Shown here: piece by piece, positions 9,423-42,169 of the stretch
How the letters are laid out: each line of letters begins with the position of its first letter
Numbering within the stretch: the first letter of the stretch is position 1
Origin: Pedosphaera sp.
GTDB taxonomy: Bacteria > Verrucomicrobiota > Verrucomicrobiia > Limisphaerales > SIBH01
DNA: 64,000 nucleotides
Direction of reading: 5' to 3'
NCBI GenBank assembly: GCA_031414955.1
Contig: JANOQV010000056.1
Coordinates: 32,001 to 96,000 of the forward strand
Translations under genes and position numbers: made by a program
Notes under the pieces: model-generated
Told to the model about the DNA's origin: nothing
The model's input: only the letters and a program-made list of their open reading frames with translations
Databases searched by the model: none

Positions 9423-10564
9423 GGAAGCTCCAAGCTCCAAGCTCCAAGCTCCAGAGAAACATCAAATACCAAGCCTCAAGCGCGCACCTGAGCCGGTGTC
9501 GGCTGTTGGTGTTTGGAGCTTGGTGCTTCTTTGGATCTTGGGTCTTGGATCTTGAATCTTCTTCAGCGCACGCCGCTGACGCTCCTGCCGCTGTTCGCGA
9601 TCCCGTCCGCGTCGATGAAAAAACCGAGGCCATCATCAAAGGCGCGCTCAAGTGGCTCGCCTCCAAACAGTCGCCCAACGGCGCCTGGGCCGGCTCCGAG
9701 ATGGAACAGCAACATCCCATCGCCATCACCGGCTACGCGCTCATGGCCTTTCAGGCGGCGGGCCAGTTGCCCGGCGAAGGTGAGTACGGAAAGAACGTCT
9801 CCCTCGGGATGCAGTATCTCATCGACTCGATCACACCCGACGGCCTGATGGGCAACAAGCAGAACGGCCAGTACATGTACGGCCACGGCGTCGCGACCAT
9901 CGCGCTGGCCGAACTCTACGGGCAGACCAAGTCGCCGGCCGTGCGGGCCAAGCTCGACAAGATCGTGAAGGTCATCGTCAGCTCGCAGAACAACGAGGGC
10001 GGCTGGCGCTACCGGCCCATCGCCTATCAGGCCGACGTCTCGGTGACAGTGCTGCAAGTGGTGGGATTGCGCGCGGCCAAGAACGCCGGCCTGGACGTGC
10101 CGCAGAAGACCATCGACCAGGCCATCAGCTACGTGAAGAAATGCTTCCACGAACCCAGCGGCGGGTTCTGTTATCAGCCGGGCCAGACGCCGGGCTTTGC
10201 GCGCACGGCGGCGGCGATTTACTCGCTGCAAGTCTGCGGCCTCTACGATGACCCGATGGTCAAGAGCGGCTCCGAGTATCTGAACCGGAACTATCGGGAC
10301 TCGCGCGCCGAGTGGTTCACCTACGGCCATTTCTACGCCGCCCCCGCCCAGTATATGCGCGGGGGCGAGACCTGGGAGAAGTGGTACGGCCGCTTGAACG
10401 AAACCTTGGTCAAGCGCGCCACGGTCAAGGGCGACACCGCCTTTTGGGATTCCGCCGAGACACAACTCGATGGCGGCCGCAACGTGGGGCTGATCTACTG
10501 CACCAGTGTGTACACCATGATCCTCGCCATGCCCTACCACTACATCCCGCTCTACCAGCGCTGA
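9419..10564 (+). CDS. Prenyltransferase/squalene-oxidase repeat (terpene cyclase-like alpha/alpha) protein
   Basis: LKWLASKQSPNGAW, MYGHGVATIALAE, SQNNEGGWRY, DVSVT; ATGA overlap with the upstream gene. Confidence 0.85.
   Translation: MRKLQAPSSKLQRNIKYQASSAHLSRCRLLVFGAWCFFGSWVLDLESSSAHAADAPAAVRDPVRVDEKTEAIIKGALKWLASKQSPNGAWAGSEMEQQHPIAITGYALMAFQAAGQLPGEGEYGKNVSLGMQYLIDSITPDGLMGNKQNGQYMYGHGVATIALAELYGQTKSPAVRAKLDKIVKVIVSSQNNEGGWRYRPIAYQADVSVTVLQVVGLRAAKNAGLDVPQKTIDQAISYVKKCFHEPSGGFCYQPGQTPGFARTAAAIYSLQVCGLYDDPMVKSGSEYLNRNYRDSRAEWFTYGHFYAAPAQYMRGGETWEKWYGRLNETLVKRATVKGDTAFWDSAETQLDGGRNVGLIYCTSVYTMILAMPYHYIPLYQR
9425..9557. repeat. Heptamer-repeat inverted element (AAGCTCC arm / TTGGAGC-TTGGATC arm)
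   Basis: aagctcc repeats, then ttggtgt/ttggagc/ttggtgc/ttggatc repeats. Confidence 0.8.
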
Positions 10565-15972: not shown

Positions 15973-17237
15973 GAGGCGCCCGCTGGCTCGGTGTTGCGCG
16001 GCCGGATCAACAGCACCAGCACGACGGAAACAACGGCCGCACCGGCGAAGATGCTGAAGATGATGTTCAGTGGCACACCACGATCTTGCAGCGTGCCGAA
16101 GCCCCAATCCGCGAAGCCACCGCAACTGATGCTGACCAGGTTCATCACCCCGTAGCCCGTGGCGCGCAATTCAGGCCGCACGATCTGGCAGAGGATGGGC
16201 ATGTTGTTGCAATCAAAGAAACCCCAGCCGATGCCGAACAGCACCAGGAACGCGACGGCCACGGCCAGCGTGCCGGCGTTGCCCACGCCAAACATGGCCG
16301 GCACGATGCAGGCCATGCCGATGGCGCTGACGTAAATGCGCCCCCGCTCCGTGCGGCGCATCCAGCGATCCGCCAGCCATCCGCCCAGCAGCGCGCAACA
16401 CAACGCCGCCACCTGCCAGTAAAGTGTGGCCGACACCCCCGCGCGGCCCTGACTGATGTTGAACTGCTTTTGCAGAATGGCCGGCATCCAGTCGCGCACC
16501 ACCCAACCCGCCAGCGCCGGCAAAGTGAAGTAGAGCACCAGCAGGAGGAAGGAAGTGTTGCCCAGCAAGGCTCCGAGCGCGCCCAAAGGCGAAGTCTTCC
16601 CCGCCGAGGTCACAGTGCCGCCCGTGCGCGGCGCATTCTTGAGCAGGAGCAGGAGCGGCAGCGCGTAAAGCACCCCGATGAGGCCGCAGACGCTGAAGGC
16701 CAAGCGCCAGCCAAGTTGCGGAGAGTCCGCGACGTAGCCGCTGAACCCGCCGATGATGACACCCGTGTAGATGCCCATTTGATGCACGCCCACGGCGCGC
16801 GACCTCGTTGGTCCGGTGTGAAAGTCCGCGATGAGCGCCAGCGCGGCGGGAATGTAGCAAGCCTCGCTGATGCCCATCAGCGCCCGCGCCGTCACCAACT
16901 GATCGTACGAAGTGACCTGCCCGGTCGCCCACGTCACCACCGACCAGACAAACAAACTTCCGGCGATGACATGCCGCCGGCTGAAACGATCCGCGAGGTA
17001 ACCGCCCACCGGACTGAGCACCGCATAGACCCACTTGAATGAGCCGAGCAGGAAGCCCCAGTTCTGTTGCGAGGCGATGTCCGGGATGTCGTGCATCACC
17101 GAGACCTTCATCGCGGCGAGCATCTGCCGGTCGAGATAGTTCAACAGCGCCACCGGGAAGAGCAGCGCCACGACCAGCCAGGCCGTGGAGCGGAGTGAGG
17201 GTAAAAAAGTCGAGGCGGCGTGCATGGGCGAAGTCAA
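15969..17237 (-). CDS. MFS transporter (anion:cation symporter-like)
   Basis: LNYLDRQ, GYLADRFSRR, about 12 hydrophobic segments. Confidence 0.92.
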   Translation of the reverse strand: MTSPMHAASTFLPSLRSTAWLVVALLFPVALLNYLDRQMLAAMKVSVMHDIPDIASQQNWGFLLGSFKWVYAVLSPVGGYLADRFSRRHVIAGSLFVWSVVTWATGQVTSYDQLVTARALMGISEACYIPAALALIADFHTGPTRSRAVGVHQMGIYTGVIIGGFSGYVADSPQLGWRLAFSVCGLIGVLYALPLLLLLKNAPRTGGTVTSAGKTSPLGALGALLGNTSFLLLVLYFTLPALAGWVVRDWMPAILQKQFNISQGRAGVSATLYWQVAALCCALLGGWLADRWMRRTERGRIYVSAIGMACIVPAMFGVGNAGTLAVAVAFLVLFGIGWGFFDCNNMPILCQIVRPELRATGYGVMNLVSISCGGFADWGFGTLQDRGVPLNIIFSIFAGAAVVSVVLVLLIRPRNTEPAGAS

Positions 17238-29699: not shown

Positions 29700-29871
29700 G
29701 CGCCCGACTCACGGCAACGGGCTTTTTGTCGCGCCGGCCCTCCCCACTCAAGCCCCAGGGTGGCAACTGACATAATCTGACTGCGAACCAGAATTCGGTC
29801 GTGGACGAGGATGGCGAGCTCGTATTTACGATCGCCGGCAAGGTCAGCCCAGAGCGGTGAATTGGGTTGGT

Positions 29872-30072
29872 CCGTCGCCTACTCCCCAATGAAATGGGCC
29901 ACGATGCGGCGGCGGTGGGCGAGCGTGCGGTGTTCCCAAAGATAAATGCCCTGCCAGGTGCCCAGCGCCAGCTCACCGCGTGCGATGGGCACAGTCACAT
30001 TCACCGCCGTGAGCGCGGTGTGGATGTGCGCGGACATGTCGTCCTCGCCCTCGGCGGTGTGCTCGAAGATCG
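29872..30072 (-). pseudogene. yjbQ: Duplicated 3' part of yjbQ (direct repeat of 39991-40191)
   Basis: 201-bp repeat, about 7 mismatches by eye; encodes HTAEGEDDMSAHI...LGTWQGIYLWEHR...FIGE. Confidence 0.88.
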
Positions 30073-30319
30073 ATTCACCACGCCGGCTCAGACGATGCCC
30101 TTGGGGGCGCTTCGTCCCCATCGCGCGGGTGTTGTCCGGCGGTGGCTGATGGTGTGCAACATCTCCGAGCTGACTTGCGCGGTCTGTTTCCGCAATGAAG
30201 CCAGGTAAGGAAACTTGACCCAGATCGCCCCGAGCCCACTCACCCGCACGCCTGGGCGACACGAATTGGACAGACAAGACTGAGATAACATGGCAAGCAG
30301 TGGCTCCAGAACCTGAGTT

Positions 30320-31063
30320 ATGAGTTCGCTTTCCAAACAAAACCTCCAGGAGTCGCCGCGCGGCGGTCAGTTTCTCACCACGCCCTGGACGATCGTCGTC
30401 TCACACGCGCGCGCGGGGGACACGGCGGCGCGCGAGCAGTTGTGCCGGCTCTACTGGTATCCGCTCTACGCCTACCTGCGCCGCGAGGGTTGCGCCCCGC
30501 ACAACGCGCAAGATTTGGTGCAGGGCTTCCTCGCGGCGCTGCTCGCCCGGGACGGATTGCGCGAGGTTGCGCGCGTCAAAGGCCGCTTCCGCTCCTTCCT
30601 CCTGGCGTGCTTGAAGAATTATCAGAAGGATCAATGGTCGCGGGAGCAGGCCGTGAAGCGCGGCGGGCATGCGCTGATTTTTTCGCTCGATGAAACGGTC
30701 GCGGAAGAACATTACCGGCGCGAGCCGACCGACGGCGTGGATCCGGCGAAGCTCTACGAGCGGGCCTGGGCGCAGGCGGTGCTGGACCGGGCACTGGCCC
30801 GCGTGGAGCGGAAGTTCACTCAGGCCGGACAGGAGGCAGTATTTGTCGCACTGGCTCCGTTTCTGCGGGGTGAGCGCGTGGCGGAAAACCACGCGCAACT
30901 GGGCGCGCGTTTTGGGCTTACGGAGCAGGCCATGCGCGTGCGCGTCCACCGGTTGCGCGCCGAATACCGCCAGGTGCTGCGTGAAGAAGTGGGAGCCACC
31001 GTGCTGGACGCGCCGGAAGTGGACGAGGAACTGGCCCACCTCTACCGCGTGCTCACGACCTGA
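30320..31063 (+). CDS. ECF sigma-70 family factor of the type typically paired with Ser/Thr kinases in PVC bacteria
   Basis: FLTTPWTIV, LCRLYWYPLYAYLRR, AQDLVQGF, GRFRSFLL, region-4 HTH MRVRVHRLR. Confidence 0.9.
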   Translation: MSSLSKQNLQESPRGGQFLTTPWTIVVSHARAGDTAAREQLCRLYWYPLYAYLRREGCAPHNAQDLVQGFLAALLARDGLREVARVKGRFRSFLLACLKNYQKDQWSREQAVKRGGHALIFSLDETVAEEHYRREPTDGVDPAKLYERAWAQAVLDRALARVERKFTQAGQEAVFVALAPFLRGERVAENHAQLGARFGLTEQAMRVRVHRLRAEYRQVLREEVGATVLDAPEVDEELAHLYRVLTT

Positions 31064-31342
31064 AGCTCACCACAGAAATCCGTGGACGTGAATCTGGTGG
31101 AAGAGCGGCAAGGAACCGGGCGTGGGCCCGCACTGGCGCAGGGAAAAATCCGCGCCTTCCACGGACGGCAATTCACCCTCAATCACAGCCCCGCGCTTTT
31201 TTGCCTCGCGCGAGCGCGCGAGGCCGTTCGAGGATTTTATCTCCCGCGCCTGGCTCCAGTCCGCGTCGGACACGGCCACGACCCAAACGTCGCCGACTGC
31301 GAGGTAGCCTACGCCGAAGGAGCGGGTGCGGTTCATGTCCTG

Positions 31343-33190
31343 TTACGGCGTCGGGTCGGGCCACATCCACACGACGTTGGTGGTCTTGCTCCCAGGCTGC
31401 ACGATCCAGTTAGTTTCCACGGTGTGGAAGCCGGGGCAAAAAAACCGGTAGTTGATTTCGCCGGGTGAATGCGCGCGTTCCTCGGCCATAAATTCAAACA
31501 GCAGATATTCCACGAAGTCTTTCCGCACGGTGTTGTTTTTGAACCGCCACGGCTCCGTGCGGCCCCATTCGTCCGTGCTGAGGACCCAGAGGTTCGGCGC
31601 AGCATCGATCACGCCGACGATTTTGAGGCGCAGGACGCCGGGGCGGAAATCAAGCGCGAGTTTCGCTGCCGGCCCGGCGCGGAGTTCCACCCGCGTGCGC
31701 GCGCGGTTGTTCGTGTCGGTAAGCGAGGCGGCGTCCACCACGAGACGACCGGCGGGCAGATTGCTGAGGAGGAGCTGCTGGCCGGAGAGAAGTCCTTCGG
31801 CAACGGTTTTTTTGTCGGCATCAAAAACCTGGAAGCGCACCGGCTCTCGACCGAGCGAGGGCGCGCGGGTGAGGAGCAGGGAGCCGGAAGCCAGCCCGGT
31901 CTTTTTATCCGGCCCGCCGCGACCGCGACCGTGGGGCGTCATCACGGCTGGCGGGACGAAATTCGTCAAAAAACTTTTAGTTGGGTTCGTCGTTGATGGC
32001 CGAAAGTTTAATCTCCCCCGCCATTTCCATCCGGCTGCGCCCACGCCCGCGAGGAACAGCAGCAACACCAGCCACGCCCAGTTCCGCGCCGCCGGCTTCG
32101 GTTCCTCGTCGCCCACCCAAGTCGTCCGGCCCGGTCTCAGCCCTTGGTCGGCCACCGGTTCCGAGGCGCGATGCAGGCGAAGCCGCCCCGCGACTTCGCG
32201 CATGTTCTGGAGCCGGCACGCTGGATCGGGCGTGAGGCAGGCGGTCACCGCGACTTTCACATGGCCCGGCAGCGCCACCTCGTAACCCAATTCCCCCAGC
32301 CGGTCCGACATCGACTGCGGCAGTTCGCGCGGCGCGGCAAAAATTTCCTCCTGGGTCCGAAAGGGCGGCGTGCCCGTGAGCAAAAAGTAGAGCGTCGCGC
32401 CCAACGAATAAATGTCATCCGTCAGCGCCGCTGGTTCGCCCGCCATCTGCTCCGGGCTGCTAAAAAGCGGCGTGCCGCAACCGCTCTCCCGCTCTTCTCC
32501 CGCCTGGGCGCGGTCGACCGCAGGGTTGGCGAGGCCGAAGTCGGCGAGTTTCAAAACGCCCTCATGGGTGACCATCAAGTTGCCCGGCTTCAAGTCGCGA
32601 TGGACGATGCCCTCCGTGCCGTGCGCGTATTCCAGCGCGGCGCACAACTGCCGCACCCAAGGCAGAATCGCGACCCAAAGGAACAGGCCCGCCGGCTGCC
32701 CGGCGCGCAGCGCCTCGACGGACCAGCCGCGCACGTATTCCATCGAGAAAAAGACCGGCTCATCCTCCTGCTCGTGCCAGTCGTAGATGCGGATGATGTT
32801 CGGATGGTTCAGCCGTCGGCTGTGCAGCACCTCGCGTTTCAGAAAGTCGAGCGCCTCGGGCCGGTCGCGGATTTGCGGCGCGAGAAATTTCAGGGCGACA
32901 AAAAAAACGTCCCCGCCCCGGGTGAGATGCTCGTCCACCGCCAGCCACACCAGGCCCATGCCGCCCTCGCCGAGTGGTTCGACCAGCCGGAAGCGGCCCC
33001 GTGCCAGCCGCTCGCCCGGCTGGATCACCCAGCCATAACGAGCGACCTGCTCCTCGGTCGGGACGGGCTGGCCCAGTGATGAAATGCGCAGCGAACTGAT
33101 TTGAAAACAGGCGAGACACAGGCCGAGCGGAGCCTGATCCGGAATGGTGGCACCACAATCAACGCAGTGAATCGCTAGATCTTCGGTCAT
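31343..33190 (-). CDS. Membrane-anchored Hanks-type Ser/Thr protein kinase
   Basis: N-terminal CxxC...CxxC, LGEGGMGLVW, VALK, HRDLKPGN, DFG, SPEQ, DIYSLG; TM helix and extracytoplasmic beta domain. Confidence 0.93.
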   Translation of the reverse strand: MTEDLAIHCVDCGATIPDQAPLGLCLACFQISSLRISSLGQPVPTEEQVARYGWVIQPGERLARGRFRLVEPLGEGGMGLVWLAVDEHLTRGGDVFFVALKFLAPQIRDRPEALDFLKREVLHSRRLNHPNIIRIYDWHEQEDEPVFFSMEYVRGWSVEALRAGQPAGLFLWVAILPWVRQLCAALEYAHGTEGIVHRDLKPGNLMVTHEGVLKLADFGLANPAVDRAQAGEERESGCGTPLFSSPEQMAGEPAALTDDIYSLGATLYFLLTGTPPFRTQEEIFAAPRELPQSMSDRLGELGYEVALPGHVKVAVTACLTPDPACRLQNMREVAGRLRLHRASEPVADQGLRPGRTTWVGDEEPKPAARNWAWLVLLLFLAGVGAAGWKWRGRLNFRPSTTNPTKSFLTNFVPPAVMTPHGRGRGGPDKKTGLASGSLLLTRAPSLGREPVRFQVFDADKKTVAEGLLSGQQLLLSNLPAGRLVVDAASLTDTNNRARTRVELRAGPAAKLALDFRPGVLRLKIVGVIDAAPNLWVLSTDEWGRTEPWRFKNNTVRKDFVEYLLFEFMAEERAHSPGEINYRFFCPGFHTVETNWIVQPGSKTTNVVWMWPDPTP

Positions 33191-33507
33191 CGCTTTCGGG
33201 CGAGGAGGAAAATGGCGATCCGGATCGAACTTGGCAACACCGCGCGCGCCTTCACCACAAATGTTGCGGCACAAGAAACCAGCCCGGTATCAAATCCTTG
33301 ACCCGTGCGACGGCGGAGAAGCTTGGCCCAGGGGGGCACCAAACACCTGGCCAAGATCTCAAGCTCTTCGGCGGTCAAGCCCGTCGCCGCTTCGCCAGGC
33401 GCGGCGTGCTCAAGATGCGCTCTTCCTGGCCAGGATTCTCCCGCCTCGGCTACTCCCGATGAGGCCAGATGGGTGTGCCCCACGCACCGTCAAGATGCTC
33501 GATTTCA

Positions 33508-35322
33508 TCAACGGCTCTCCGCGTATTCATTCATGTCCACGATGTAGCTCCACCAGTTGTTGAGCTTGCCGTTGTTGATCGGATTGGTCGCATCAATGTA
33601 ACGGCCGGGCGCTTTGGGAAAGCGGGTCATCCACCAGTGAAGAAAGTTGCGCCCGTAATCGGGTCCGCCCCACGCATTCGCACTAACATTGGTGAGGGCT
33701 CCGGAAAGGTTTGGAAAACTCAGCCAGCGGTTGGCCTCGGATGTCACTGGGGAAAACACGCTGTACTCGTAATCGTTCGTTGCGTTCGGCGGAAAGTGAA
33801 CATTGCCGCAGCCGGCGGTGCTGACACCGTGCCGCGGCCCAACCCGCGTAAATCTGTCCCACAGGTGATTGACGGTCGCGGATCCGCTCCAACTGCCATA
33901 CACATGCGTGAGGATCGACTCGGAGCGGTGCCCGAACGAATGCACCGCTTCAGCGACGCCGCGCTCATAGTTTAGCCCCATGACGACGTAGAGACGGGAA
34001 TTGCGAGTCAGAGCCGGTGCGTTGCACCAGTAGGCCGTGCTACCGACCATCCTGGATTCATACACGATGCTCATGTATGGAGCACCCCAGACCACAATTT
34101 CATCAACCTCTCCGCAGGCTGCCATTTGATGGGCTGTCTTGTTCCCGAGCGCTACCAAAGGAAGATCCAGCAAGGCGTCGTAGTCCGCGCCGTTCGGCGT
34201 GTGCCAGGGATACTGCTGTGAGTTGGACCAAGATTGAAGATAGCTGGTATCGGTGTAACGAAAGCCGTCGATCGCCGCGGGCCATAGATCAAGATCGACC
34301 GTCGCAGCCACCTGCCATTGCACGTATCCCCCGCTGGCCGTGCTTAAGTCATTCAAATAGGCCGCAGTAAGCGCGTGAGGATCGTTCCACCCAAGGTATT
34401 GATGCAGCCGCTGGTTTCCGTGAGCCTCCAATATGGGGTCGATGTTGAGAACGAGAACACGTTTTGTGATCGCTGGGCGATCTTCCGGCAAGGCCTTGCG
34501 GATTCGAAAAAAGCGGTGGTCCCCCGGAGGCGTCGGCGTCTGGAGCATTGTGGCGTGTTCCGATCCCTTTCTAAACCCGACACTGTTCCATGCCGCGAGG
34601 TCCAGACTGTTCGAAGTGCCCAAGTTTGGGGAGGACTGTATTTCGTACCACTGATTCAGAGAACTATTCCATGTCAGCTCCGTATCTGCGCCGACCTTTC
34701 GCAGACTGGTAATCACCAAGGGCCGGTCGAGCAGGAAGAGTTGCCACTCGTTGAGATGGACGTAGTTGTCGCCCGTGAGCCGCTGGAGTTTGAGACGGAC
34801 CACCCGGCAAGTAATGGGCACCGCCAGCGACCGATCCTGCCATGCGGCTTCCGGGCCGGTCACCCAGTCGAGGGCGACGCGAAATGTTCCGGTTGCCGCG
34901 TCCAAATCGGCAACAGTATCAGCCGTCTCGACCCGCCATCGGTTGTTGCCGGCGAGGAACCAGGTGCGCGACCTCATCAGTTGCTTTGGCGTCGCAAAGC
35001 TCAAGGTGACGACCATGGGGTTGATGGATTGCGTGCGCGCCAGAGTGTTCGTGTCGCCATCGAAGATGGCGCTGATCGGCCCGATATCAATTATGGAATT
35101 GGCCACCGTTGCCTGACCGCAGATCAGCATCCCCGCGACATCGATTTGGCCGGTCTGTGCCGCGAGTGGCGTCAGGAGCGAATACAAATAGGTGCAAATC
35201 GCTGTGAGAAGGAGTGTGGTTTTGCTCATGTTACTTCGGATAGGCATTAGCTTTCTGAACGGGGCGGCGTGCATCCGTGGCCCGGAGACGGTTTGGTCGG
35301 ACTTTGTTTGGTTGGCATTCAT
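33508..35322 (-). CDS. Secreted multidomain protein (discoidin-like domain, internal Verrucomicrobia-type module, uncharacterised C-terminal domain)
   Basis: Hydrophobic signal region; AIFDGDTNT...NEWQLF; YEIQSSPNL...W...RFFRIRK; MGLNYERG...HSFGHRSE. Confidence 0.7.
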   Translation of the reverse strand: MNANQTKSDQTVSGPRMHAAPFRKLMPIRSNMSKTTLLLTAICTYLYSLLTPLAAQTGQIDVAGMLICGQATVANSIIDIGPISAIFDGDTNTLARTQSINPMVVTLSFATPKQLMRSRTWFLAGNNRWRVETADTVADLDAATGTFRVALDWVTGPEAAWQDRSLAVPITCRVVRLKLQRLTGDNYVHLNEWQLFLLDRPLVITSLRKVGADTELTWNSSLNQWYEIQSSPNLGTSNSLDLAAWNSVGFRKGSEHATMLQTPTPPGDHRFFRIRKALPEDRPAITKRVLVLNIDPILEAHGNQRLHQYLGWNDPHALTAAYLNDLSTASGGYVQWQVAATVDLDLWPAAIDGFRYTDTSYLQSWSNSQQYPWHTPNGADYDALLDLPLVALGNKTAHQMAACGEVDEIVVWGAPYMSIVYESRMVGSTAYWCNAPALTRNSRLYVVMGLNYERGVAEAVHSFGHRSESILTHVYGSWSGSATVNHLWDRFTRVGPRHGVSTAGCGNVHFPPNATNDYEYSVFSPVTSEANRWLSFPNLSGALTNVSANAWGGPDYGRNFLHWWMTRFPKAPGRYIDATNPINNGKLNNWWSYIVDMNEYAESR

Positions 35323-35437
35323 GGTATCTGTGAACTTTTAAGGTTTTTCTCAGCGCTTTCCGCACAGGCTAAACGTGCCCGGCATCCGGCTTCGTAGAGG
35401 GAAACGTGCAATTCTCCCGATCGTTACAAACTATTTT
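35272..35437 (-). repeat. Duplicated promoter/leader/N-terminus cassette, copy 1 (copy 2 at 38275-38440)
   Basis: 166-bp near-identical direct repeat, offset 3003. Confidence 0.9.
35403..35428 (-). promoter_or_regulatory. ECF-type promoter TGTAAC-N16-CGTT
   Basis: Minus strand tgtaac gatcgggagaattgca cgtt, upstream of the 35322 start. Confidence 0.7.
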
Positions 35438-35541
35438 TGCTGGTGTGGACGAGTTGGCTTTCCTGGTTTGGAAAGCAACCGGCCTGTACAGAAAAGACTG
35501 GCCTCGAGAATTTGTTTTCCCTCTTAACGGCCCGCAATGCG

Positions 35542-38325
35542 TCATAACGAAACGAGTGCCACGCGGAGACGCAGGAACCGCTGGCCGGTACCCACAGGAA
35601 GGACATCTCGCACCATGACTTGTCGAAAGGCTCCATCCAACGGCTGCGACGAGACCTCCGGTGCGGCTATCGCCTGCCAAGTGACGAGATTGGTCGATGC
35701 TTCAATCGTCAGCACAAGATCGGCCGCCGGTCGGTAACGCTGCGGAAAGGTGAGCGTGAGGTAGGAGGAACCGCCGATCTTCGCGAAGCCTCCGCGAGGG
35801 CGGCGCTTGAATTCCAGGCCGGGCGTCATGCCCACGGCATACCGAAAGAGGAGGATGTTACTTCCCCCCAACGGATCAACTGCCGGCGGCGTCGAGCTAC
35901 TCCAGTGCTCCGGGTAGGAACTGCGCCACGCCGCAAAGGGCGCATCGAAGACCAGTCGGCTAAATGCCGAATTCGACCCTCCTGGTCCTTGAACCGAAAG
36001 GGTGTAGGTGCCGACGTGAGCGTTGGTCGCCACAGGGATGACCAGTTCGTCGGAGGTTCCGAGAACATTAGAACTGCCTCCTTGGCGCCATGCGTAGTTG
36101 GTCACAGTCCCCCCTTGCGCGATGCTGGATAGCACCACTGGATCACCGGCCCGGGCAAACACCGTAGTGCGCAGGGAGACTATTGGGAGATCCGGCACCG
36201 CCACCGGCTGAATGCTCACCATGGTCGAAACGGGTCCTACGGTGTAGGTGACCGTGCCGACGGCCCCTGTGGAGACGACAATATCATCACCATTGAAGAC
36301 AATGCCGCTGCCGGCCACCGCCACACTGACATCGTCTCGATTGAGAATCAGGGTTCTCGACATCGGCCCGAAGCTGCCGGTGAATGATGGGCGAAAGCTC
36401 CCGGCATAGATCGACGACACGCTGGTTGGGTTGCACGAGAGACCGGTCAGTGCGGAAAGTGCGGGGATGGACCATATCCGCCGTGGCGGGGCGGCCTCGT
36501 TCGGGCCACCGGCAGCAGACACGACGACGTCAGCGTTCGTGAGATTGGTGATATCCACGACCACCTCGGAACCCGTGATCTGTGCAGGGAGTGAAACTGG
36601 AATCAGACCATCGAAACGGTAGGCGTCAACAGTCGTCGGGGTGACGCCCTGGCCAGTGACGGAATTCCGCAGGTTGATCTTGATGCCCTGGAATCCACCC
36701 AATTGGACCAATGACGGCAGCTCGAAATCATCTATCACACTTTGAAGCAGGCGACGTTGCATCGCATCTAAATCCGACATTGTTGGAGCGACCACTCTTT
36801 TGTTGAAAGCACCTTTACTAGAGTCGAGATAGGCGGCCAATACCCGTTCGCCCATTGCTTGCGACGCCGTTTGCGTACCTTCGTGGACCCCGGGCACGAT
36901 AGACGCATGAGCCATGTGATCGGAAATTGTTTCGTCTGGCTGAATTCCGCCACCTTGAGACAGATAGTCCACGATGCCGTCATATCCGCCCGACTTAATG
37001 AACGCCGCATTGTCCGGATTGATGCCAAGCAACGAATGAAACTGGCGCGTTAGGAAATCCTGTGGGTAACCGGGATAAGCTAGTCCACCATCGATTCGGG
37101 AACTCAGAAAAGTAGCCGGTGGAACGAGAGCGTTCGGCTGACTCCAAGGAGCATCGGGGTTCCAAGGGTCGAATTTGTAAGCCCCTAGCCAGTAGTGGGC
37201 GAGGTATGTAAAAAGTGTGTTTGGAGCTGCGACAGTCGGGGGTGCGGAGGGTGGGTAAGTCAGTAAATCACCGATCCCAACTCTTTGGTAACGCAAGCCC
37301 CATCCTGCGACTCTGCTGCCAACTAGAGGAGAGCCAATGGTCACCAGGCCAAACACTTGATTCATGATATCTTGGTTTGGAAAGGGGGTGCCGGAGGATC
37401 GACTAGAGCACATCGCAACCGCCAACACACCACCTTGGGAGTGTCCGACCAAAAAAAATCGTTTGATTGCCCAATTCTTGCGGACCAACGCCGTCGGGCT
37501 GATGACTTCTCTCTGAACCACAGCAACGGCGGCAGCAAATTGATCCGGCCAATTGGGTTCATCTGGTGGATAAGTGAGAGGCAGAACCCAATCAGAACCG
37601 TCTCCTTCACGGAGTGGCTTAAGAAAATCTTCGGTGAACGTGGTTTTATCACTTTGGATACCGTGGAGAAGGACAATCAGTGGCTTCCGCACGGCAAAGG
37701 TCACTGTTTGCGTTTCGAGATCCTCCCATTCGGGGGGGAGAGTTGGATCAGGATTAGGCCAGCCCACTCGACCGCGCAGTGTAAGCCGGATGCGAAAGAC
37801 GGCACGATTCGATCCTGGGGCGAACATGGGGGCGAAGCCGGGATCGGGGGGCATCCCAGGGAAAATTACTTTGGCGTTAAACTGCGAAGAGAGTTTGATT
37901 TCAAGCGGACGAATGTGAAGTGGACTGGAGTCTCGATCTGGGTAAACGCCGGCAATGATACCTTGACCGTGATCAAGTGGCCCGACAGGAAAGGCACCTC
38001 CCCCTAAGTGGGTCACTTCGCCGCGCACAAATTCGGCACCCGGCTGGTCATGTGCCCAGTAGACTAGGAGAGAGGAGCCGTCGGCTGCCATCCCCGAGTC
38101 CACACCCCCGGGAATCGGAGAGCTGGCCAACGCCTCTGCTCTGCCTTGGTTAAACCCCATTTTGTAGAGCAACGGCATGGCGGCCTGCGTCTGAGGCGTT
38201 GTGGCTGCGAACGCGATGAGACAGATGGAGAAAACACAGAACGTAATTCGCTGTATTCTGGACGCTGCCCAGTTCATCCGTGGCCCGGAGACGGTTTGGT
38301 CGGACGTTGTTTGATTGGCTTTCAT
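35542..38325 (-). CDS. Secreted lipase/esterase (PGAP1-like alpha/beta hydrolase) with Ig-like and Verrucomicrobia-type C-terminal domains
   Basis: LIVLLHG, LVGHSQGG, VTIGSPLVGS, DGIV; C-terminal IEASTNLVTW...RFLRLRV. Confidence 0.8.
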   Translation of the reverse strand: MKANQTTSDQTVSGPRMNWAASRIQRITFCVFSICLIAFAATTPQTQAAMPLLYKMGFNQGRAEALASSPIPGGVDSGMAADGSSLLVYWAHDQPGAEFVRGEVTHLGGGAFPVGPLDHGQGIIAGVYPDRDSSPLHIRPLEIKLSSQFNAKVIFPGMPPDPGFAPMFAPGSNRAVFRIRLTLRGRVGWPNPDPTLPPEWEDLETQTVTFAVRKPLIVLLHGIQSDKTTFTEDFLKPLREGDGSDWVLPLTYPPDEPNWPDQFAAAVAVVQREVISPTALVRKNWAIKRFFLVGHSQGGVLAVAMCSSRSSGTPFPNQDIMNQVFGLVTIGSPLVGSRVAGWGLRYQRVGIGDLLTYPPSAPPTVAAPNTLFTYLAHYWLGAYKFDPWNPDAPWSQPNALVPPATFLSSRIDGGLAYPGYPQDFLTRQFHSLLGINPDNAAFIKSGGYDGIVDYLSQGGGIQPDETISDHMAHASIVPGVHEGTQTASQAMGERVLAAYLDSSKGAFNKRVVAPTMSDLDAMQRRLLQSVIDDFELPSLVQLGGFQGIKINLRNSVTGQGVTPTTVDAYRFDGLIPVSLPAQITGSEVVVDITNLTNADVVVSAAGGPNEAAPPRRIWSIPALSALTGLSCNPTSVSSIYAGSFRPSFTGSFGPMSRTLILNRDDVSVAVAGSGIVFNGDDIVVSTGAVGTVTYTVGPVSTMVSIQPVAVPDLPIVSLRTTVFARAGDPVVLSSIAQGGTVTNYAWRQGGSSNVLGTSDELVIPVATNAHVGTYTLSVQGPGGSNSAFSRLVFDAPFAAWRSSYPEHWSSSTPPAVDPLGGSNILLFRYAVGMTPGLEFKRRPRGGFAKIGGSSYLTLTFPQRYRPAADLVLTIEASTNLVTWQAIAAPEVSSQPLDGAFRQVMVRDVLPVGTGQRFLRLRVALVSL

Positions 38326-38440
38326 GGTATCTGTGAACTTTTAAGGTTTTTCTGAGCGCTTTCCGCACAGGCTAAACGTGCCCAGCATCCGGCTTCGTGG
38401 AGGGAAACGTGCAATTCTCTCGATCGTTACAGACTATTTT
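38275..38440 (-). repeat. Duplicated promoter/leader/N-terminus cassette, copy 2
   Basis: Matches 35272-35437. Confidence 0.9.
38406..38431 (-). promoter_or_regulatory. ECF-type promoter TGTAAC-N16-CGTT
   Basis: Minus strand tgtaac gatcgagagaattgca cgtt, upstream of the 38325 start. Confidence 0.7.
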
Positions 38441-38494
38441 CAGGCGGAGCCAAACAGCGGATCGCGGTGGCTGGGCGCAGTGAAGAGTTTTTCG

Positions 38495-38600
38495 ATTTGA
38501 CCTCAGCTCGAATGGAACCAGGGCCGCGTGTTGCGCCCGCCGCCTGGCCTTCATCGCCTCCGGGAGATCCGGGCTGGCCAGCCACCGCTGATACACGGAG
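38495..38600 (-). pseudogene. Possible C-terminal remnant of an integrase-catalytic (DDE) transposase
   Basis: YQRWLASPDLPEAMKARRRAQHAALVPFELR resembles, from recall, the TPYQRLL...LNPFEL tail of such transposases. Confidence 0.4.
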
Positions 38601-38709
38601 GGAGAACACAGACAGCACTTCTGGCCAGTCCGCCCCCAGCGGCATTGGGTCTTGGTCGCTGGAAAAGTTTGCGGATCAGCGGGAAGGACAGAGATCCAAG
38701 CGAGAGGCT

Positions 38710-38735
38710 TGTAACGTTTGGCAAGAACTCCCGTT
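38710..38735 (+). promoter_or_regulatory. ECF-type promoter TGTAAC-N16-CGTT
   Basis: tgtaac gtttggcaagaactcc cgtt, 60 nt upstream of the 38796 start. Confidence 0.7.
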
Positions 38736-38795
38736 ACCTCCGAAAGAAGGCTTCAATCGAAGCCAAAAAAGCAAAAACACTAATCCAGTTCAGCC

Positions 38796-39932
38796 ATGAA
38801 AAAATTCAAATACAGCTCTCATTTCCGCAATCTCGCCACCTTTCTGCTGGTGGCAACAATCGGTCTCCCCACGACCAATGCCCATGCGGCCAGCCTCTCT
38901 GACTTCCTTAGGGTCAAGGATGGGAAAGTTACAGCGATCAATCGCAGCGCGATCATCCCAAGTGTAATCCAGGACGTGAGCAAGGTTTTCGAGCCAAGCG
39001 GGCCAGGCTCGGCCGGGGAAGCGACTCCCAGCACGGCGCCGACACCGACGACCGGGAGCGAATCGACTGCGGCACCCAGCGCGGCCGTGGACGACTCGAC
39101 CGCACCCAAAACCGTGACCCCCAAAGACGCGACCGGGAGGTTGCCGAGCGCCAACCTGGGGATTCGTCCGCAGATTGACGGCCTGCCGGTTCGTTATGCG
39201 CTGACGGCCAACGATCATGTTCTCAACCTCAAGATCTATGGAGGTGAAAACAAATTGAGCACGCATTTTGCGAGCAGGTTTCTGGGGAACGACACGTTGG
39301 AAACATCGGTCCAGGGAGCAAAAATCCTGAATCAAACGTTCGGACGGCTCAATCCAAACCTTGAGGCATGGATCAGGGAGTTCAGAGAGTACCAGGCATT
39401 CCGCGGAGATGAATTCAAGGAACGGGATTACCTGCCCAAGATGACCGCGATCCTGACGGAAGAACTCAATTTCGCCCGAAAACTGCGCAAGGTCCGCGCT
39501 TTCGAGGCCAGATCCCAGTCGGGCGTCTATAATTTCGAGCGGCGCGCCTTTCCAGTTGAGTTGGGCCACGGACAAATGGTGTATCTGTCCAACGGGCAGA
39601 AGGTCGCATTGAGTGAAGTGACGTTGGACTCCGCACGGGCGCGAGCGTTGCGCGAAGCGACAAAGACCGGCGACCGCTGTTTCGGTTTTGGGATAATGGT
39701 CGAGGGAAATCTGCTGACCCACCACGAAGTTCAGGAACGCGGATGGAGCCTCGCTCCCGGCAGTTCCAAGCATTACATGGAAGCAACCAAGATGCTCGTT
39801 TACCTGCTCGAATGGACAGATACGCGGGGCAAAGGCAATCCCATCGTCCATACGACCTTGCTGGAAGCTCGTGACCTCTCCAGCCGAGAGGCGGTGGCCA
39901 AGGTCCCGCCAGTTTTCTCCCTGCCCGAGTAA
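38796..39932 (+). CDS. Secreted hypothetical protein (possibly DUF4852-like)
   Basis: Signal peptide ending AHA-A, P/T/S/A linker, DEF...YNFERRAFP motif. Confidence 0.65.
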   Translation: MKKFKYSSHFRNLATFLLVATIGLPTTNAHAASLSDFLRVKDGKVTAINRSAIIPSVIQDVSKVFEPSGPGSAGEATPSTAPTPTTGSESTAAPSAAVDDSTAPKTVTPKDATGRLPSANLGIRPQIDGLPVRYALTANDHVLNLKIYGGENKLSTHFASRFLGNDTLETSVQGAKILNQTFGRLNPNLEAWIREFREYQAFRGDEFKERDYLPKMTAILTEELNFARKLRKVRAFEARSQSGVYNFERRAFPVELGHGQMVYLSNGQKVALSEVTLDSARARALREATKTGDRCFGFGIMVEGNLLTHHEVQERGWSLAPGSSKHYMEATKMLVYLLEWTDTRGKGNPIVHTTLLEARDLSSREAVAKVPPVFSLPE

Positions 39933-39997
39933 GGGCTTCCACTGCTCGTTTTTTGGCTGTGGTACAGGCACGGCGATGACGTGCCTTGGCCCGTCGC

Positions 39998-40420
39998 CTA
40001 CTCTCCAATGAAATGGGCCACGATGCGGCGGCGGTGGGCGTGCGTGCGGTGTTCCCAAAGATAAATGCCCTGCCAGGTGCCCAGCGCCAGCTCACCGCGT
40101 GCGATGGGCACAGTCACATTCACGGCCGTGAGCGCGGTGCGGATGTGCGCGGACATGTCGTCCTCGCCCTCAGCGGTGTGGGCGAAGATCGCGTCGCCAT
40201 CCGGGACGAGGCGGACGAAAAACTTCTCGAAGTCGCGGCGCACTTCGGGATCGGCATTTTCCTGGATGACGAGGGAGGCGGAGGTGTGCTGGACGTGCAG
40301 CGTGACCTGGCCGGTCTTGATTCCGCTCTGGTGGAGGAGCGAGGCCACTTCGCTGGTAAACTCGTAAAAGGCACGCCCACGAGTGGCGATGATGATTTCG
40401 TGTTGGACCTGGCGAAGCAT
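39998..40420 (-). CDS. yjbQ: YjbQ/UPF0047 family protein (secondary thiamine-phosphate synthase)
   Basis: HTSASLVIQENADPEV, EGEDDMSAHIR, LGTWQGIYLWEHR. Confidence 0.93.
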   Translation of the reverse strand: MLRQVQHEIIIATRGRAFYEFTSEVASLLHQSGIKTGQVTLHVQHTSASLVIQENADPEVRRDFEKFFVRLVPDGDAIFAHTAEGEDDMSAHIRTALTAVNVTVPIARGELALGTWQGIYLWEHRTHAHRRRIVAHFIGE

Positions 40421-40435
40421 CGGGGCCGGGAAACC

Positions 40436-42169
40436 TCAGGGCTGGCGGATGATTTTTTCCAGCGACTCGTTGCGGGGATGGCCCGCCGCGCGCGCTTTCT
40501 GGTAGTGCCAGCGCGCCAGTGCCACGGCGGGCGGAGTTTGCGTGGCATAGACCACGGCGAGATTGTTGTGGGCCACGGCATTGTCGGGGGCGAGTTGCAC
40601 GGCGCGGCGCAGGGCCGCCTCCGCCGGGACGCGCAGCCCTTTCTCGCTCAACACGATGCCGAGATAATTTTGCGTGTCGGGATAATTCGGATTCACTTTG
40701 GACGAACGGCTCAGAGCATCCAGCGCCTCGTCGAGCTTGTCCTGACGGTAGCGCAACCGGCCCAGAACGTAGAGGCTGAAGTAATCGCTTGGGTCCGAAT
40801 CCAGGGCATGCCGGACGTTTCTTTCGGTCTCGGCGAGTTCACCCAGTTCCAACTGCGCGGAGGCGAGGTTGCCGAGCGTGGTGACGTTGTTCGTGTCCTG
40901 ACGCAGAAGTTCGGCGTACTTCTGCGCGGCCTCGGTGTAATTCCCGCTGGCAAAAGCGCGCTCCGCCGCTTGCACCAGTTTCTGCGCGCCGGTGGGAACG
41001 CCACGGGTGGCGTTGCGCAGCGGGCCTTCGGCGGGGGGCGGAATGGCCGATGTCGGCACCGCCGGCTGAGTGGAGGCGGTGAACGCGGCCGTGATGACCG
41101 CCGGAGTCCGGGCAAAGAGCGCGATTTCCTCCGTGGTGTAGGGCGCAGGTTTCGCTTCCAACGCCTGCACGCGAGCCTTCAAGGCCTCCAGTTCGCGCTT
41201 CGCCTCCGCCGGCATCACCGTGTTGGTCAGGATACGACGCTGGGCGTTGAGGGCGACCTGCTTCGCGAGCTCCAGTTCTTTTTGTAGGGCGATGTTCTGG
41301 GCCGCGGTTTTGTTCAACTGTTCGACTTGCGCGGCGGAACTGGCGGTCGCTTTGGCCAGGGTCTCGCGGACCATGTTCGTGGCCGAGTCCAGCCGGACCT
41401 GCCACTCCACGGACTGTTTCTTCAGGATTTCGTTTTCGGAGCGCAAGGTGGTGATGACCTCGATCTGCTCGGTCAGTTTCGAGGCCAGTTCAGGCGGGGC
41501 CAGGACCGCCGGCGCGGTGTTGGCGCGCTGGGCCAGTTGCACCTTGAACAGCTCGTTCTCCTTTTGCAGGGCGCGAATGCGCTCTTCCGCCCGGGCCAAC
41601 TCCTTGGGATCGAGTCCCGCCGGCTGCACCGAAAGCGCCTCCTTCAATTTTGCGGCCAGCAGTTTGTTGTCCGCCTGGAGCCGATCAATCTCCGCCTTCA
41701 GGTTTTGCACTTGCTGGTCGAACTCGGTGGACCAGGCGGCGGCGTTGTTCGTGGGCGTGAACAAAGGAACCGGATTGGTCGGGCCGGTGAGGGAGAGGTT
41801 CGTCACGATCAGCGGCACAGGGATCGGCGGCGTGGTCGGAGCGACCGGCGCGGGCGCAAGGGGTGTCGGCGGCGCAGCGGGAGTCCCGCCCAAGGTCGAG
41901 GCGATGGGCGCGAGCTTGGTGGTGATGTAATTCAACCGGTAGTTGACCACGCGATCGTTCCAGCCGGGATAGATTCCACGGAAATTGGTCAGCGCGCTTT
42001 GGGCCTCCACGTATTTGGACGCCGCCAGCTTGGGCTGGCCCGTGTCGTTGAGGCGATCCGCATCCTGAATCATCTGGTAGATGCGGACGTAGTGCTCATC
42101 CGGGCCGTCGGCGTGCGCCCAGAGGCACGTCAGCAGCCACGCCGTCAGCAGTACGAGGAACCGATTCAT
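40436..42169 (-). CDS. Secreted coiled-coil plus TPR protein
   Basis: Signal peptide MNRFLVLL, coiled coils, C-terminal TPRs (AHNNLAVVY). Confidence 0.85.
   Translation of the reverse strand: MNRFLVLLTAWLLTCLWAHADGPDEHYVRIYQMIQDADRLNDTGQPKLAASKYVEAQSALTNFRGIYPGWNDRVVNYRLNYITTKLAPIASTLGGTPAAPPTPLAPAPVAPTTPPIPVPLIVTNLSLTGPTNPVPLFTPTNNAAAWSTEFDQQVQNLKAEIDRLQADNKLLAAKLKEALSVQPAGLDPKELARAEERIRALQKENELFKVQLAQRANTAPAVLAPPELASKLTEQIEVITTLRSENEILKKQSVEWQVRLDSATNMVRETLAKATASSAAQVEQLNKTAAQNIALQKELELAKQVALNAQRRILTNTVMPAEAKRELEALKARVQALEAKPAPYTTEEIALFARTPAVITAAFTASTQPAVPTSAIPPPAEGPLRNATRGVPTGAQKLVQAAERAFASGNYTEAAQKYAELLRQDTNNVTTLGNLASAQLELGELAETERNVRHALDSDPSDYFSLYVLGRLRYRQDKLDEALDALSRSSKVNPNYPDTQNYLGIVLSEKGLRVPAEAALRRAVQLAPDNAVAHNNLAVVYATQTPPAVALARWHYQKARAAGHPRNESLEKIIRQP

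What the first reader, a model, noticed from the sequence alone, without database searches (positions are those of the whole stretch)
30320..39932. Self-contained kinase / ECF sigma / target-gene regulon in an island: all three secreted-protein genes have an exact TGTAAC-N16-CGTT promoter
Seen: TGTAAC, exactly 16 nt, then CGTT at 35403-35428 (-), 38406-38431 (-) and 38710-38735 (+), each 60-80 nt upstream of a signal-peptide gene. The third has an unrelated spacer and the opposite orientation, so it is independent of the duplication behind the first two. The same island encodes an ECF sigma factor and a membrane Ser/Thr kinase with an extracytoplasmic domain, and no anti-sigma factor is evident. 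Known: ECF promoters typically have -35 AAC and -10 CGT with about 16-nt spacing, and some ECFs are activated by kinase phosphorylation (EcfP/PknT). Inference: a portable sensor-sigma-secreted enzyme module, which would also give a promoter motif for a poorly characterised PVC ECF type.
Basis: partly seen in the sequence, partly recalled or inferred. Interest (0 to 1): 0.85.

Follow-up and report, generated by a model that had tools for sequence, protein, structure and literature searches.

The report
Rearranged kinase-linked sigma and its promoters
Three genes for predicted exported proteins each carry the same two-part DNA signal, whose letters match what the neighbouring alternative sigma factor is predicted to read, so they are likely its target genes, while control by the adjacent membrane kinase is plausible but untested and probably differs from the known phosphorylation switch.

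Summary
The three TGTAAC-N16-CGTT sites are real, 60-80 nt before three predicted exported-protein genes, and are the genome's only exact copies. Two share a 185-nt duplication, so only two leaders are independent (chance of any such shared motif: 6-7%). Stronger evidence comes from relatives. The sigma is one of about 25 ECF62-like paralogues. Across 258 family members a TGTAAC-N16 promoter typically lies between sigma and kinase, and its letters follow the sigma's residues. The island sigma's V207, H210, D104, N100 and V83 predict TGTAAC-N16-C.TT; it ranks first of 21 scored paralogues, by only 0.8 bit. Against: the sites lack the family's GTA tail; sigma and kinase are convergent, not tandem; neither has a strong site; the sigma is long-branched; the kinase lacks its relatives' FGE domain. 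The sigma keeps NxxD in region 2.2, so the EcfP switch does not apply. The 10-kb block is bounded by a duplicated yjbQ end, with no integrase. Only one target is clearly an enzyme. The scan found this family promoter before on other DNA; five literature searches did not find it in print. Verdict: a divergent, rearranged member of a known kind.

The parts
29854..30080 (-). Left copy of a 227-nt direct repeat: 3' half of yjbQ plus about 25 nt downstream; left boundary of the block
   Evidence: 93% identical to 39973-40199; UPF0047 positions 58-116 only
30320..31063 (+). ECF62-like sigma factor, 247 aa; predicted DNA-reading residues V83, N100, K103, D104, R206, V207, R208, H210; region 2.2 reads N62-A-Q-D65; V67 and D141 where the family has Thr or Ser
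   Evidence: best hits in the 5.8-billion set are 43-51% identical
31343..33190 (-). Ser/Thr kinase, 615 aa: N-terminal CxxC..CxxC, Hanks domain with intact motifs, one predicted membrane helix, about 230-aa predicted outside part without the FGE domain of relatives; convergent with the sigma
33508..35322 (-). Target T1, 604 aa, predicted exported; C-terminal domain with a weak zincin-like fold and the motif H461-S-F-G-H-R-S-E, which lacks the usual catalytic Glu
   Evidence: pLDDT 86; best E 0.014; best Z 6.7, rmsd 4.3, 157 aligned
35253..35437 (-). 185-nt duplicated unit, copy 1 (promoter, leader and first codons of T1)
   Evidence: 92% identical to 38256-38440
35403..35428 (-). Site S1: TGTAAC-N16-CGTT, 80 nt before the first in-frame ATG of T1
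35542..38325 (-). Target T2, 927 aa, predicted exported alpha/beta hydrolase (G294-H-S-Q-G), Ig-like domain, and a C-terminal domain shared with many other proteins
38256..38440 (-). 185-nt duplicated unit, copy 2 (promoter, leader and first codons of T2)
38406..38431 (-). Site S2: TGTAAC-N16-CGTT, 80 nt before the first in-frame ATG of T2
38495..38593 (-). Relic of the C-terminal end of an insertion-sequence transposase between the two divergent promoters
   Evidence: 54.5% over 33 aa, E 4e-5, to a 399-aa ORF on G000:C46 with a weak rve hit
38710..38735 (+). Site S3: TGTAAC-N16-CGTT, 60 nt before the T3 ATG; outside the duplication
38796..39932 (+). Target T3, 378 aa, signal peptide-like start, Pro/Ser/Thr/Ala-rich linker, orphan domain
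   Evidence: only itself among 6660 candidates; no relative in the metagenome scan; model pLDDT 36; Atlas lead DUF4852 at 0.88-0.90 with low recognition
39973..40199 (-). Right copy of the 227-nt direct repeat, inside the intact yjbQ (39998-40420); right boundary

Best explanation
The three TGTAAC-N16-CGTT sites are likely promoters read by the neighbouring ECF62-like sigma factor, which would transcribe the three predicted exported-protein genes, probably under control of the adjacent membrane kinase by a route other than the EcfP region-2.2 switch. Shown: sites, genes, orientation, residues, and residue-to-base covariation in relatives. Inferred for recognition: region 4 (V207, H210) reads TGTAAC; region 2 (D104, N100, V83) reads C, T, T of CGTT; the G of CGTT has no trained rule (K103). 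Inferred for expression: the sigma has no strong site of its own and would be made from a housekeeping promoter. The kinase has lost the dedicated promoter usual in the family and could be reached only by read-through from S1 or by another promoter. Inferred for control: the kinase binds the sigma and gates it through phosphorylation outside region 2.2 or by holding it. Because this copy has V67 and D141 where the family has Thr or Ser, some kinase-independent activity is expected. My odds: promoters of this sigma family 0.9; read by the local sigma 0.7; kinase is its working regulator 0.5.
For: Family promoter: 123 of 258 family sigmas have a site scoring 12 or more just downstream, against 1 of 120 shuffles. 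Using the 80 of 258 sites picked by exact TGTAAC alone, so that the -10 side played no part in the choice: D104 goes with C at -13 in 28 of 28, other residues in 3 of 52; V83 with T at -10 in 26 of 35, A83 in 0 of 40; N100 with T at -11 in 10 of 14; an exact TGTAAC site follows 74 of 160 V207 sigmas and 6 of 98 others. Rules trained on 107 sigmas from other genomes rank the island sigma first of 21 scored own paralogues (10.4 bits; next 9.6, 9.0, 8.4). It is the only one of 258 with all of V207, H210, R206, D104, N100 and V83. The predicted pattern TGTAAC-N16-C.TT occurs about 1e-4 times per 150-nt leader. Two runners-up have their own different sites: GTGAC for C149, and CTTA or CGTA for C184. 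Two other family loci use the same motif: G181:C46 has 4 sites (kinase plus three exported-type genes) and G032:C309 has 2. Published mutagenesis shows that Asp at the RpoE Asn84 position gives -13C and -12G (bioRxiv 10.1101/2020.06.23.168245, section 6). The alignment to M. tuberculosis SigE places N100, D104, R206, R208, H210 and R211 on SigE's N, D, R, R, H and R. Complex prediction of kinase with sigma gave weak support: 0.38 against a best control of 0.00. The mark was reached by 116 of 157 solved and 2 of 215 mismatched pairs, but at 0.60 or under by only 18 of the 157 and by both mismatches; runs agree in at least 36% of contacts, partner pLDDT at least 70.
Against: The sites score only 1.9-4.8 on the family matrix (threshold 12). 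They lack both -9G (58 of 80) and -7A (65 of 80); only 9 of 80 family sites lack both. R206 predicts A after TGTAAC (23 of 29), G in only 5 of 29. The lead over the next paralogue is 0.8 bit. C229 has no site to check because its contig ends, and four further paralogues were compared by eye only. The exact motif is not enriched near family sigmas: 2 copies in 1.17 Mb against 0-2 at other spacers. None of 20 hand-picked exact matches in other genomes had a family sigma in the fetched flank. The sigma is long-branched (0.71 against a median of 0.23; 7 of 265 as long) and differs at 14 of 69 conserved columns (median 5). A 96%-identical variant shows 7 synonymous and 7 non-synonymous codons from 15 of 19 listed differences, pN/pS about 0.34. 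Convergent layout in 2 of 79 loci against 63 of 79 tandem. The kinase belongs to another kinase clade (42-49% to most of it, 32% to a typical family kinase) and lacks the FGE domain found in 4 of its 5 closest zinc-ribbon relatives. The covariation counts are not corrected for relatedness.
Confidence: 0.6

Rival explanations
1. The local sigma reads the three promoters but no longer depends on this kinase. The module is a rearranged remnant whose kinase has lost its promoter and its FGE sensor domain, and the sigma is partly constitutive (D141 acting as a built-in negative charge in the linker).
For: Position 141 is Thr or Ser in 210 of 264 relatives and Asp in 17; position 67 is Thr in 229 of 264. 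A linker threonine is a required phosphosite in EcfK (PMC13147305 passages). No site lies before the kinase (best -0.2). The layout is convergent and the FGE domain is absent.
Against: Kinase catalytic motifs, zinc ribbon and membrane helix are intact. T20, T21, T24, S92, S122, T201 and T227 remain as possible acceptors. There is weak predicted binding. Two relatives that pair with the same kinase clade also have V67 and D141 (L227, L228), so the combination need not mean decay. That position 141 equals EcfK T106 was not tested.
Confidence: 0.2
2. The sites are read in trans by another ECF62-like paralogue of the genome, and the island sigma is decaying.
For: About 25 paralogues share the TGTAAC-type -35. 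Three score within 2 bits. C149 has a GTGAC-N16-CGTT site and C171 a site sharing 12 nt with S3's -35 context. The island sigma has non-conservative changes at conserved columns such as A29H, L38R, L102Q, E165K and R215E. Family-like sites occur far from any family sigma in G126.
Against: The reading frame is intact and the variant still shows pN/pS below 1. The runners-up's own sites differ at -33 or -10. The exact motif occurs nowhere else in the genome, including beside those paralogues.
Confidence: 0.15
3. The match is partly chance: one real or relic promoter was duplicated (S1 and S2) and S3 matches by coincidence, or the sites are no longer used.
For: Look-elsewhere chance of 6-7%; low family score and missing tail; in most of 201 order genomes the exact motif is no commoner than its reversed control; an IS relic lies between S2 and S3.
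Against: The motif equals the family -35 at the family spacing and the residue-predicted -10 (about 1e-8 for two leaders). Distances to ATG match those at G181:C46 and G032:C309 (53-89 nt before exported-type genes).
Confidence: 0.05

Closest known systems
ECF62 (Casas-Pastor et al. 2021, PMC7826278; main-text and supplementary passages read)
   Same: No anti-sigma; associated one-helix membrane kinase with an N-terminal zinc finger, as described for subgroups s1-s3. In my family set the kinase is at +1 in 63 of 79 loci, and some family members come from Planctomycetes.
   Different: [quoted passage not shown] Here the host is inferred to be Verrucomicrobiota from the titles of relatives. A promoter is found downstream of the sigma gene (1 of 79 has one upstream). 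This copy's kinase is convergent, has no WD40 and belongs to another kinase clade. No group HMM was available.
ECF43: EcfP/PknT (Vibrio parahaemolyticus) and EcfK/PknS (Xanthomonas citri) (PMC8999054 section 3.4; PMC13147305 passages)
   Same: ECF without anti-sigma next to a Hanks-type membrane kinase; a small regulon of envelope or secreted functions.
   Different: ECF43 replaces the DAED motif by Ser/Thr (STTA, QATE) and has a predicted GTC/CAG promoter. The island sigma has N62-A-Q-D65, and the family keeps D62 in 204 and D65 in 258 of 264, with Gln or Glu at the EcfP phosphosite.
General ECF residue-to-base code (Todor et al., bioRxiv 10.1101/2020.06.23.168245; sections 5 and 6 read)
   Same: The same helix positions set -34, -31, -13, -12 and -11; Asp at the Asn84 position gives -13C.
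   Different: That work used promoters upstream of the sigma gene, operon or divergent gene. In this family the site lies between sigma and kinase, D104 sigmas mostly have -12T (37 of 50), and residue 83 sets -10. The numbering match to RpoE is inferred through the SigE alignment and recall; no RpoE alignment was obtained.
   Same: TGTAAC-N16-CGTT before exported-type genes at similar distances; their sigmas also have D104 and V83.
   Different: They are tandem sigma, promoter, kinase, targets; they keep the -9G tail; their sigmas have H100, A103 or I102-A103, and K206. The tree does not group the island sigma with them.

Membership tests
ECF (group 4) sigma factor | sigma2 and sigma4 domains only, about 200-250 aa | tested here: met
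   247 aa; Sigma70_r2 E 6.5e-4 and TIGR02937 E 4e-7, both below cut-off; family HMM 293 bits; family profile aligns to M. tuberculosis SigE over both domains at E 0.003
ECF62 | Scores to the ECF62 group HMM | not testable with these tools
   No ECF group HMMs on hand; the label rests on genomic context and on earlier scan notes
ECF62 | Protein kinase with one membrane helix in the neighbourhood, usually at +1 | tested here: inconclusive
   The kinase is adjacent with one predicted helix but convergent; relatives are tandem in 63 of 79 loci
ECF62 | N-terminal zinc finger on the kinase (subgroups s1-s3) | tested here: met
   CxxC at residues 9 and 25
ECF62 | WD40 repeats on the kinase (subgroups s1, s2 only) | tested here: not met
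   No Pfam family in the 215-aa C-terminal part
ECF62 | No co-encoded anti-sigma factor | tested here: met
   Neighbours are a yjbQ fragment and the kinase; two small ORFs have no Pfam match
ECF43 (EcfP/EcfK) | DAED motif of region 2.2 replaced by Ser/Thr, which is the phosphosite | tested here: not met
   N62-A-Q-D65; position 64 is Gln or Glu in 244 of 264 relatives
ECF43 (EcfP/EcfK) | Predicted promoter GTC (-35) and CAG (-10) | tested here: not met
   Sites read TGTAAC and CGTT; ECF43 motif from the supplement passage
ECF43 (EcfP/EcfK) | Direct phosphorylation of the sigma by the neighbouring kinase | not testable with these tools
   Only a weak complex prediction, 0.38 against a best control of 0.00
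Integrative genomic island | Direct repeat restoring the 3' end of a host gene | tested here: met
   227-nt, 93% repeat of the yjbQ 3' half at both ends, with an intact yjbQ at one end
Integrative genomic island | Integrase or recombinase within the element | tested here: not met
   None among the ORFs; only a 33-aa transposase relic
Integrative genomic island | Empty site in relatives | tested here: inconclusive
   7 of 7 fetched congener loci keep TPR-yjbQ with one yjbQ and none of the island genes, but none has the methyltransferase next to yjbQ; no joint between the repeats in contigs of 4 runs
Metzincin/zincin protease (target T1) | HExxH zinc motif with catalytic Glu on a zincin fold | tested here: inconclusive
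   Fold hits are mostly metzincins but weak (E 0.014; Z up to 6.7); the motif is H-S-x-G-H-R-x-E, with the second His, the Arg and the Glu invariant in 16 rows

The most novel reading that the evidence does not exclude
This locus is a natural uncoupling experiment. A kinase-linked ECF has swapped its two commonest candidate phospho-acceptors (T67V, T141D), carries SigE-like DNA-reading residues, reads a private tail-less CGTT promoter, and is paired with a chimeric zinc-ribbon kinase from another clade that acts as a tether or anti-sigma instead of an activating kinase. It would expose both the phosphosite and a non-EcfP control mechanism for the whole ECF62-like family.
Probability: 0.2. Interest if true: 0.75.

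Novelty: new variant of a known kind. Interest (0 to 1): 0.5.

Why it matters
Kinase-associated ECF groups other than ECF43 have no tested member in the review section I read (PMC8999054), and ECF62 is listed without a conserved promoter (PMC7826278 supplement). The family promoter sits downstream of the sigma gene, which would explain why upstream searches missed it. Its residue rules give ready reporters for a family with up to about 30 paralogues per genome. This locus adds a divergent sigma with three predicted targets and natural substitutions at two candidate phosphosites, a useful contrast to a typical tandem pair. It is a variation on a known theme, and the scan has reported the family promoter on other DNA.

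Tried and rejected
No RNA holder was listed for the region, so start sites could not be checked. Conservation of S3 in a 90%-identical variant contig (38708-38863) could not be read: 5 of its 15 differences are unlisted and the site lies at the contig end. Relic of a tandem sigma gene in the T1-kinase gap: no hit with the family HMM. FGE-domain relic in the 89-aa in-frame ORF after the kinase stop: not above shuffles, and the profiles held only 3 sequences. Close orthologue of the sigma: none above 51% identity, so no same-lineage neighbourhood test was possible. G032:C246, whose sigma shares five key residues, showed no matching site in its 10.3-kb contig. Close relatives of the C171 sigma: none in 250 genomes at E 1e-55. 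The excess of 24 motif copies in G059 is mostly one repeated element. T1 homologue loci lacked the exact motif and family sigmas (7 loci). A sub-threshold site (10.3, TGCAAC with 17-nt spacing) lies about 135 nt before the sigma and does not fit V207. The sigma-70 promoter scan found 1 site against 2.8 expected, and no terminator-like site was listed in the T1-kinase gap. Rfam gave no match. The T3 fold was unusable. The tree placed the sigma with other long branches and was not used for ancestry. Which yjbQ copy is native could not be told. Literature searches that found no report of this promoter. Iyer 2020 and Jogler 2012 were not read. The supplement of PMC7826278 was cut when stored, its Table S2 and HMMs were not seen, and the bioRxiv supplements were closed; any of these may hold a predicted motif.

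Full report
OBSERVATION. The pattern TGTAAC-N16-CGTT occurs three times in the window, at the stated coordinates; 0.01 are expected and 0 of 100 shuffles reach three. These are the only N16 copies in the 6.55-Mb, 313-contig genome, while spacers of 12 to 20 give 0 to 5 copies each. The signal is therefore three hits within 3.3 kb, each before a long ORF at 80, 80 and 60 nt. Sites 1 and 2 lie in a 185-nt duplication (92%) that also covers the first codons of T1 and T2. Site 3 is outside it and shares 7 and 6 of 16 spacer letters. With two independent leaders, some shared 6+4 bipartite motif appears by chance in 222 of 3000 resampled and 170 of 3000 random genomic 150-mers, so the window alone does not settle the matter.

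ANATOMY. From left to right: a 3' fragment of yjbQ; sigma (+, 30320-31063); kinase (-, 33190-31343); T1 (-); T2 (-); a 33-aa transposase relic; T3 (+); intact yjbQ. Sigma and kinase are convergent. The 227-nt, 93% repeat of the yjbQ 3' half bounds the block as an integration at a gene end would. There is no integrase. Seven of 7 fetched congener loci keep the TPR-yjbQ pair with a single yjbQ and different genes beyond it, and none shows the methyltransferase next to yjbQ. The block's DNA was not found in 11 congeners. Contigs of four sediment runs cover the block in pieces with no joint between the two repeats; one run may be the source sample. GC3 is host-like for sigma and kinase (60th and 48th percentile of 2801 long ORFs) and lower for T1, T2 and T3 (31st, 8th, 29th). 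'Inserted block' is fair; 'portable' is not shown.

THE SIGMA FAMILY. The sigma is one of about 25 paralogues in the genome; 36 of 41 genomes searched, the own genome included, hold a match. Titles of related records are mostly Verrucomicrobiota, with some Planctomycetota and Lentisphaerae; the host's phylum is inferred from this. No close orthologue exists in the searches (best 43-51%). In 79 loci with enough flank, 63 are tandem sigma-then-kinase, 2 are convergent, and only 1 has a family site upstream of the sigma. Instead, a site of consensus TGTAACCT-N11-TTC(C/T)TnnGTAA lies just downstream: 70 of 98 sigma-kinase gaps against 1 of 98 shuffles, and 123 of 258 against 1 of 120 in the enlarged set. 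This context fits ECF62, for which the supplement of PMC7826278 says that predicted promoter motifs are not conserved (passages only). The ECF62 lead came from earlier scan notes; no group HMM was available.

WHICH SIGMA READS THE SITES. Mutual information on 113 strong 16-spaced sites (of 258 sigmas) links residue 207 to -34, 206 to the base after AAC, 104 to -13, 100 to -11 and 83 to -10. Leave-one-out accuracy on 107 non-own sigmas was 104, 95, 92, 63 and 97, against majority baselines of 87, 80, 51, 40 and 51. On 80 sites chosen by exact TGTAAC alone the -10 links hold: D104 with C 28 of 28 (others 3 of 52), V83 with T 26 of 35 (A83 0 of 40), N100 with T 10 of 14. The island sigma has V207, H210, D104, N100 and V83 and so predicts TGTAAC-N16-C.TT, which all three sites show; the background is about 1e-4 per 150-nt leader. 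It ranks first of 21 scored paralogues, 10.4 bits against 9.6, 9.0 and 8.4. Four others (two broken, two distant) were inspected by eye only. Two of the three runners-up have their own, different sites; the third sits at a contig end. Published mutagenesis gives -13C and -12G for Asp at the RpoE Asn84 position (bioRxiv 10.1101/2020.06.23.168245, sections 5-6). My mapping of residue 104 to that position rests on the alignment to M. tuberculosis SigE and on recalled RpoE numbering. Independently, G181:C46 has four such sites, before its kinase and three exported-type genes, and G032:C309 has two.

RESULTS AGAINST. The island sites score 1.9-4.8 on the family matrix, below the threshold of 12. 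They lack both -9G and -7A, as only 9 of 80 family sites do, and R206 favours A (23 of 29) where the sites have G. The G of CGTT has no rule, since no training sigma has K103. The exact motif is not enriched in 1.17 Mb around 79 family sigmas (2 copies, against 0-2 at other spacers), whereas the generalised family pattern is (22 against 1-7). Of 20 exact matches that I picked by eye from other genomes, none had a family sigma in the fetched flank and 2 had a kinase. The sigma is a long branch with 14 of 69 conserved columns changed. A 96%-identical variant fragment gives pN/pS of about 0.34 from 15 of its 19 differences, which suggests weak purifying selection on very little data. None of the covariation counts is corrected for relatedness.

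THE KINASE AND CONTROL. The kinase has a zinc ribbon, intact GEGGMG, VALK, HRDLKPGN and DFG motifs, and one predicted membrane helix. Its domain belongs to a clade distinct from the usual family kinases. Of the five closest zinc-ribbon relatives, four end in an FGE-sulfatase domain and three have a family sigma beside them, two of these divergently. The island kinase stops before such a domain, and tests for a relic failed. It has no family site and lies 318 nt after T1 on the same strand, with no terminator-like site listed in that gap, so read-through from S1 is possible but unshown. The EcfP mechanism needs Ser/Thr in place of DAED (PMC8999054 section 3.4). This sigma has N62-A-Q-D65 and the family keeps both aspartates in most members, so that route is unlikely. 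EcfK has a second required phosphosite in the linker (PMC13147305 passages). The family has Thr or Ser at linker position 141 in 210 of 264, and this sigma has Asp; it also has Val at 67, where 229 of 264 have Thr. The equivalence of these positions to EcfK's sites was not tested. A complex prediction gave weak support for kinase-sigma binding: 0.38 against a best control of 0.00, a range reached by 18 of 157 solved complexes and by both mismatched pairs that passed.

TARGETS. T2 is a predicted exported alpha/beta hydrolase with a G-H-S-Q-G motif and an Ig domain. T1 has a well-modelled C-terminal domain (pLDDT 86) with weak zincin-like fold matches and no catalytic Glu in its His motif; homologues occur in 18 of 200 other order genomes. 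T3 is an orphan. Signal peptides were judged by eye and hydropathy; no predictor was available. What the kinase senses and what the three proteins do together is not resolved.

VERDICT. Most likely the local, divergent ECF62-like sigma transcribes the three genes from these sites (0.7), with the kinase as a working regulator at about even odds and by a non-EcfP route; overall 0.6. Rivals are a kinase-uncoupled remnant (0.2), reading in trans by a paralogue (0.15), and chance or disuse (0.05). The family promoter was not found in print in five searches, but unseen supplements may hold it, and the scan has noted it on other DNA. Novelty: new variant of a known kind. Interest 0.5.

Noticed in passing
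G000:C171 40898 (+); L418:4899: TGTAACG-N15-CTTT before a 1670-aa exported-type gene, divergent from a distant family sigma whose region-4 helix also reads R-V-R; it shares 12 nt with the -35 context of S3. No close relatives were found to test this.
   Followed up: partly
G000:C123 47293 (-) and 41051 (-): Two TGTAAC sites with GTTG at the family -10 register, one between a paralogous sigma and its zinc-ribbon kinase and one before a signal-peptide gene: another small regulon in this genome.
   Followed up: partly
L359 (G181:C46) 13942, 10637, 9415, 3051: A textbook tandem cassette: sigma, kinase and three exported-type genes with four TGTAAC/CGTAAC-N16-CGTT sites; a better experimental model than this window.
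   Followed up: partly
L397-L400 (G126 contigs C60, C78, C254, C277): Four similar family-like sites ending CCGTTAGTAC on four contigs, with no family sigma in the fetched flanks; possibly a dispersed regulon or a repeat.
   Followed up: partly
window 38495-38593: Transposase C-terminal relic between the divergent promoters S2 and S3.
   Followed up: yes
window 31067-31336 (-) and 33187-33483 (-): An 89-aa ORF in frame after the kinase stop, and a 98-aa ORF whose stop overlaps the kinase start codon; neither has a Pfam match.
   Followed up: partly
L227 and L228 (G126:C1, G052:C17): Family sigmas with an altered region-4 helix, divergent from zinc-ribbon FGE kinases of the island kinase's clade; they share V67, D141 and H191 with the island sigma.
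   Followed up: partly
window 39998-42169 and L260-L266: TPR-yjbQ adjacency is conserved in 7 of 7 fetched congener loci, while the genes after yjbQ vary, so the yjbQ 3' end may be a rearrangement point.
   Followed up: partly
G000:C98, C61, C23: Several family sigma paralogues are broken by a stop or frameshift.
   Followed up: no
window 7001-10000 and 16001-17000: Strong positive AT skew (0.2-0.4) suggests long low-complexity or repetitive genes elsewhere in the window.
   Followed up: no
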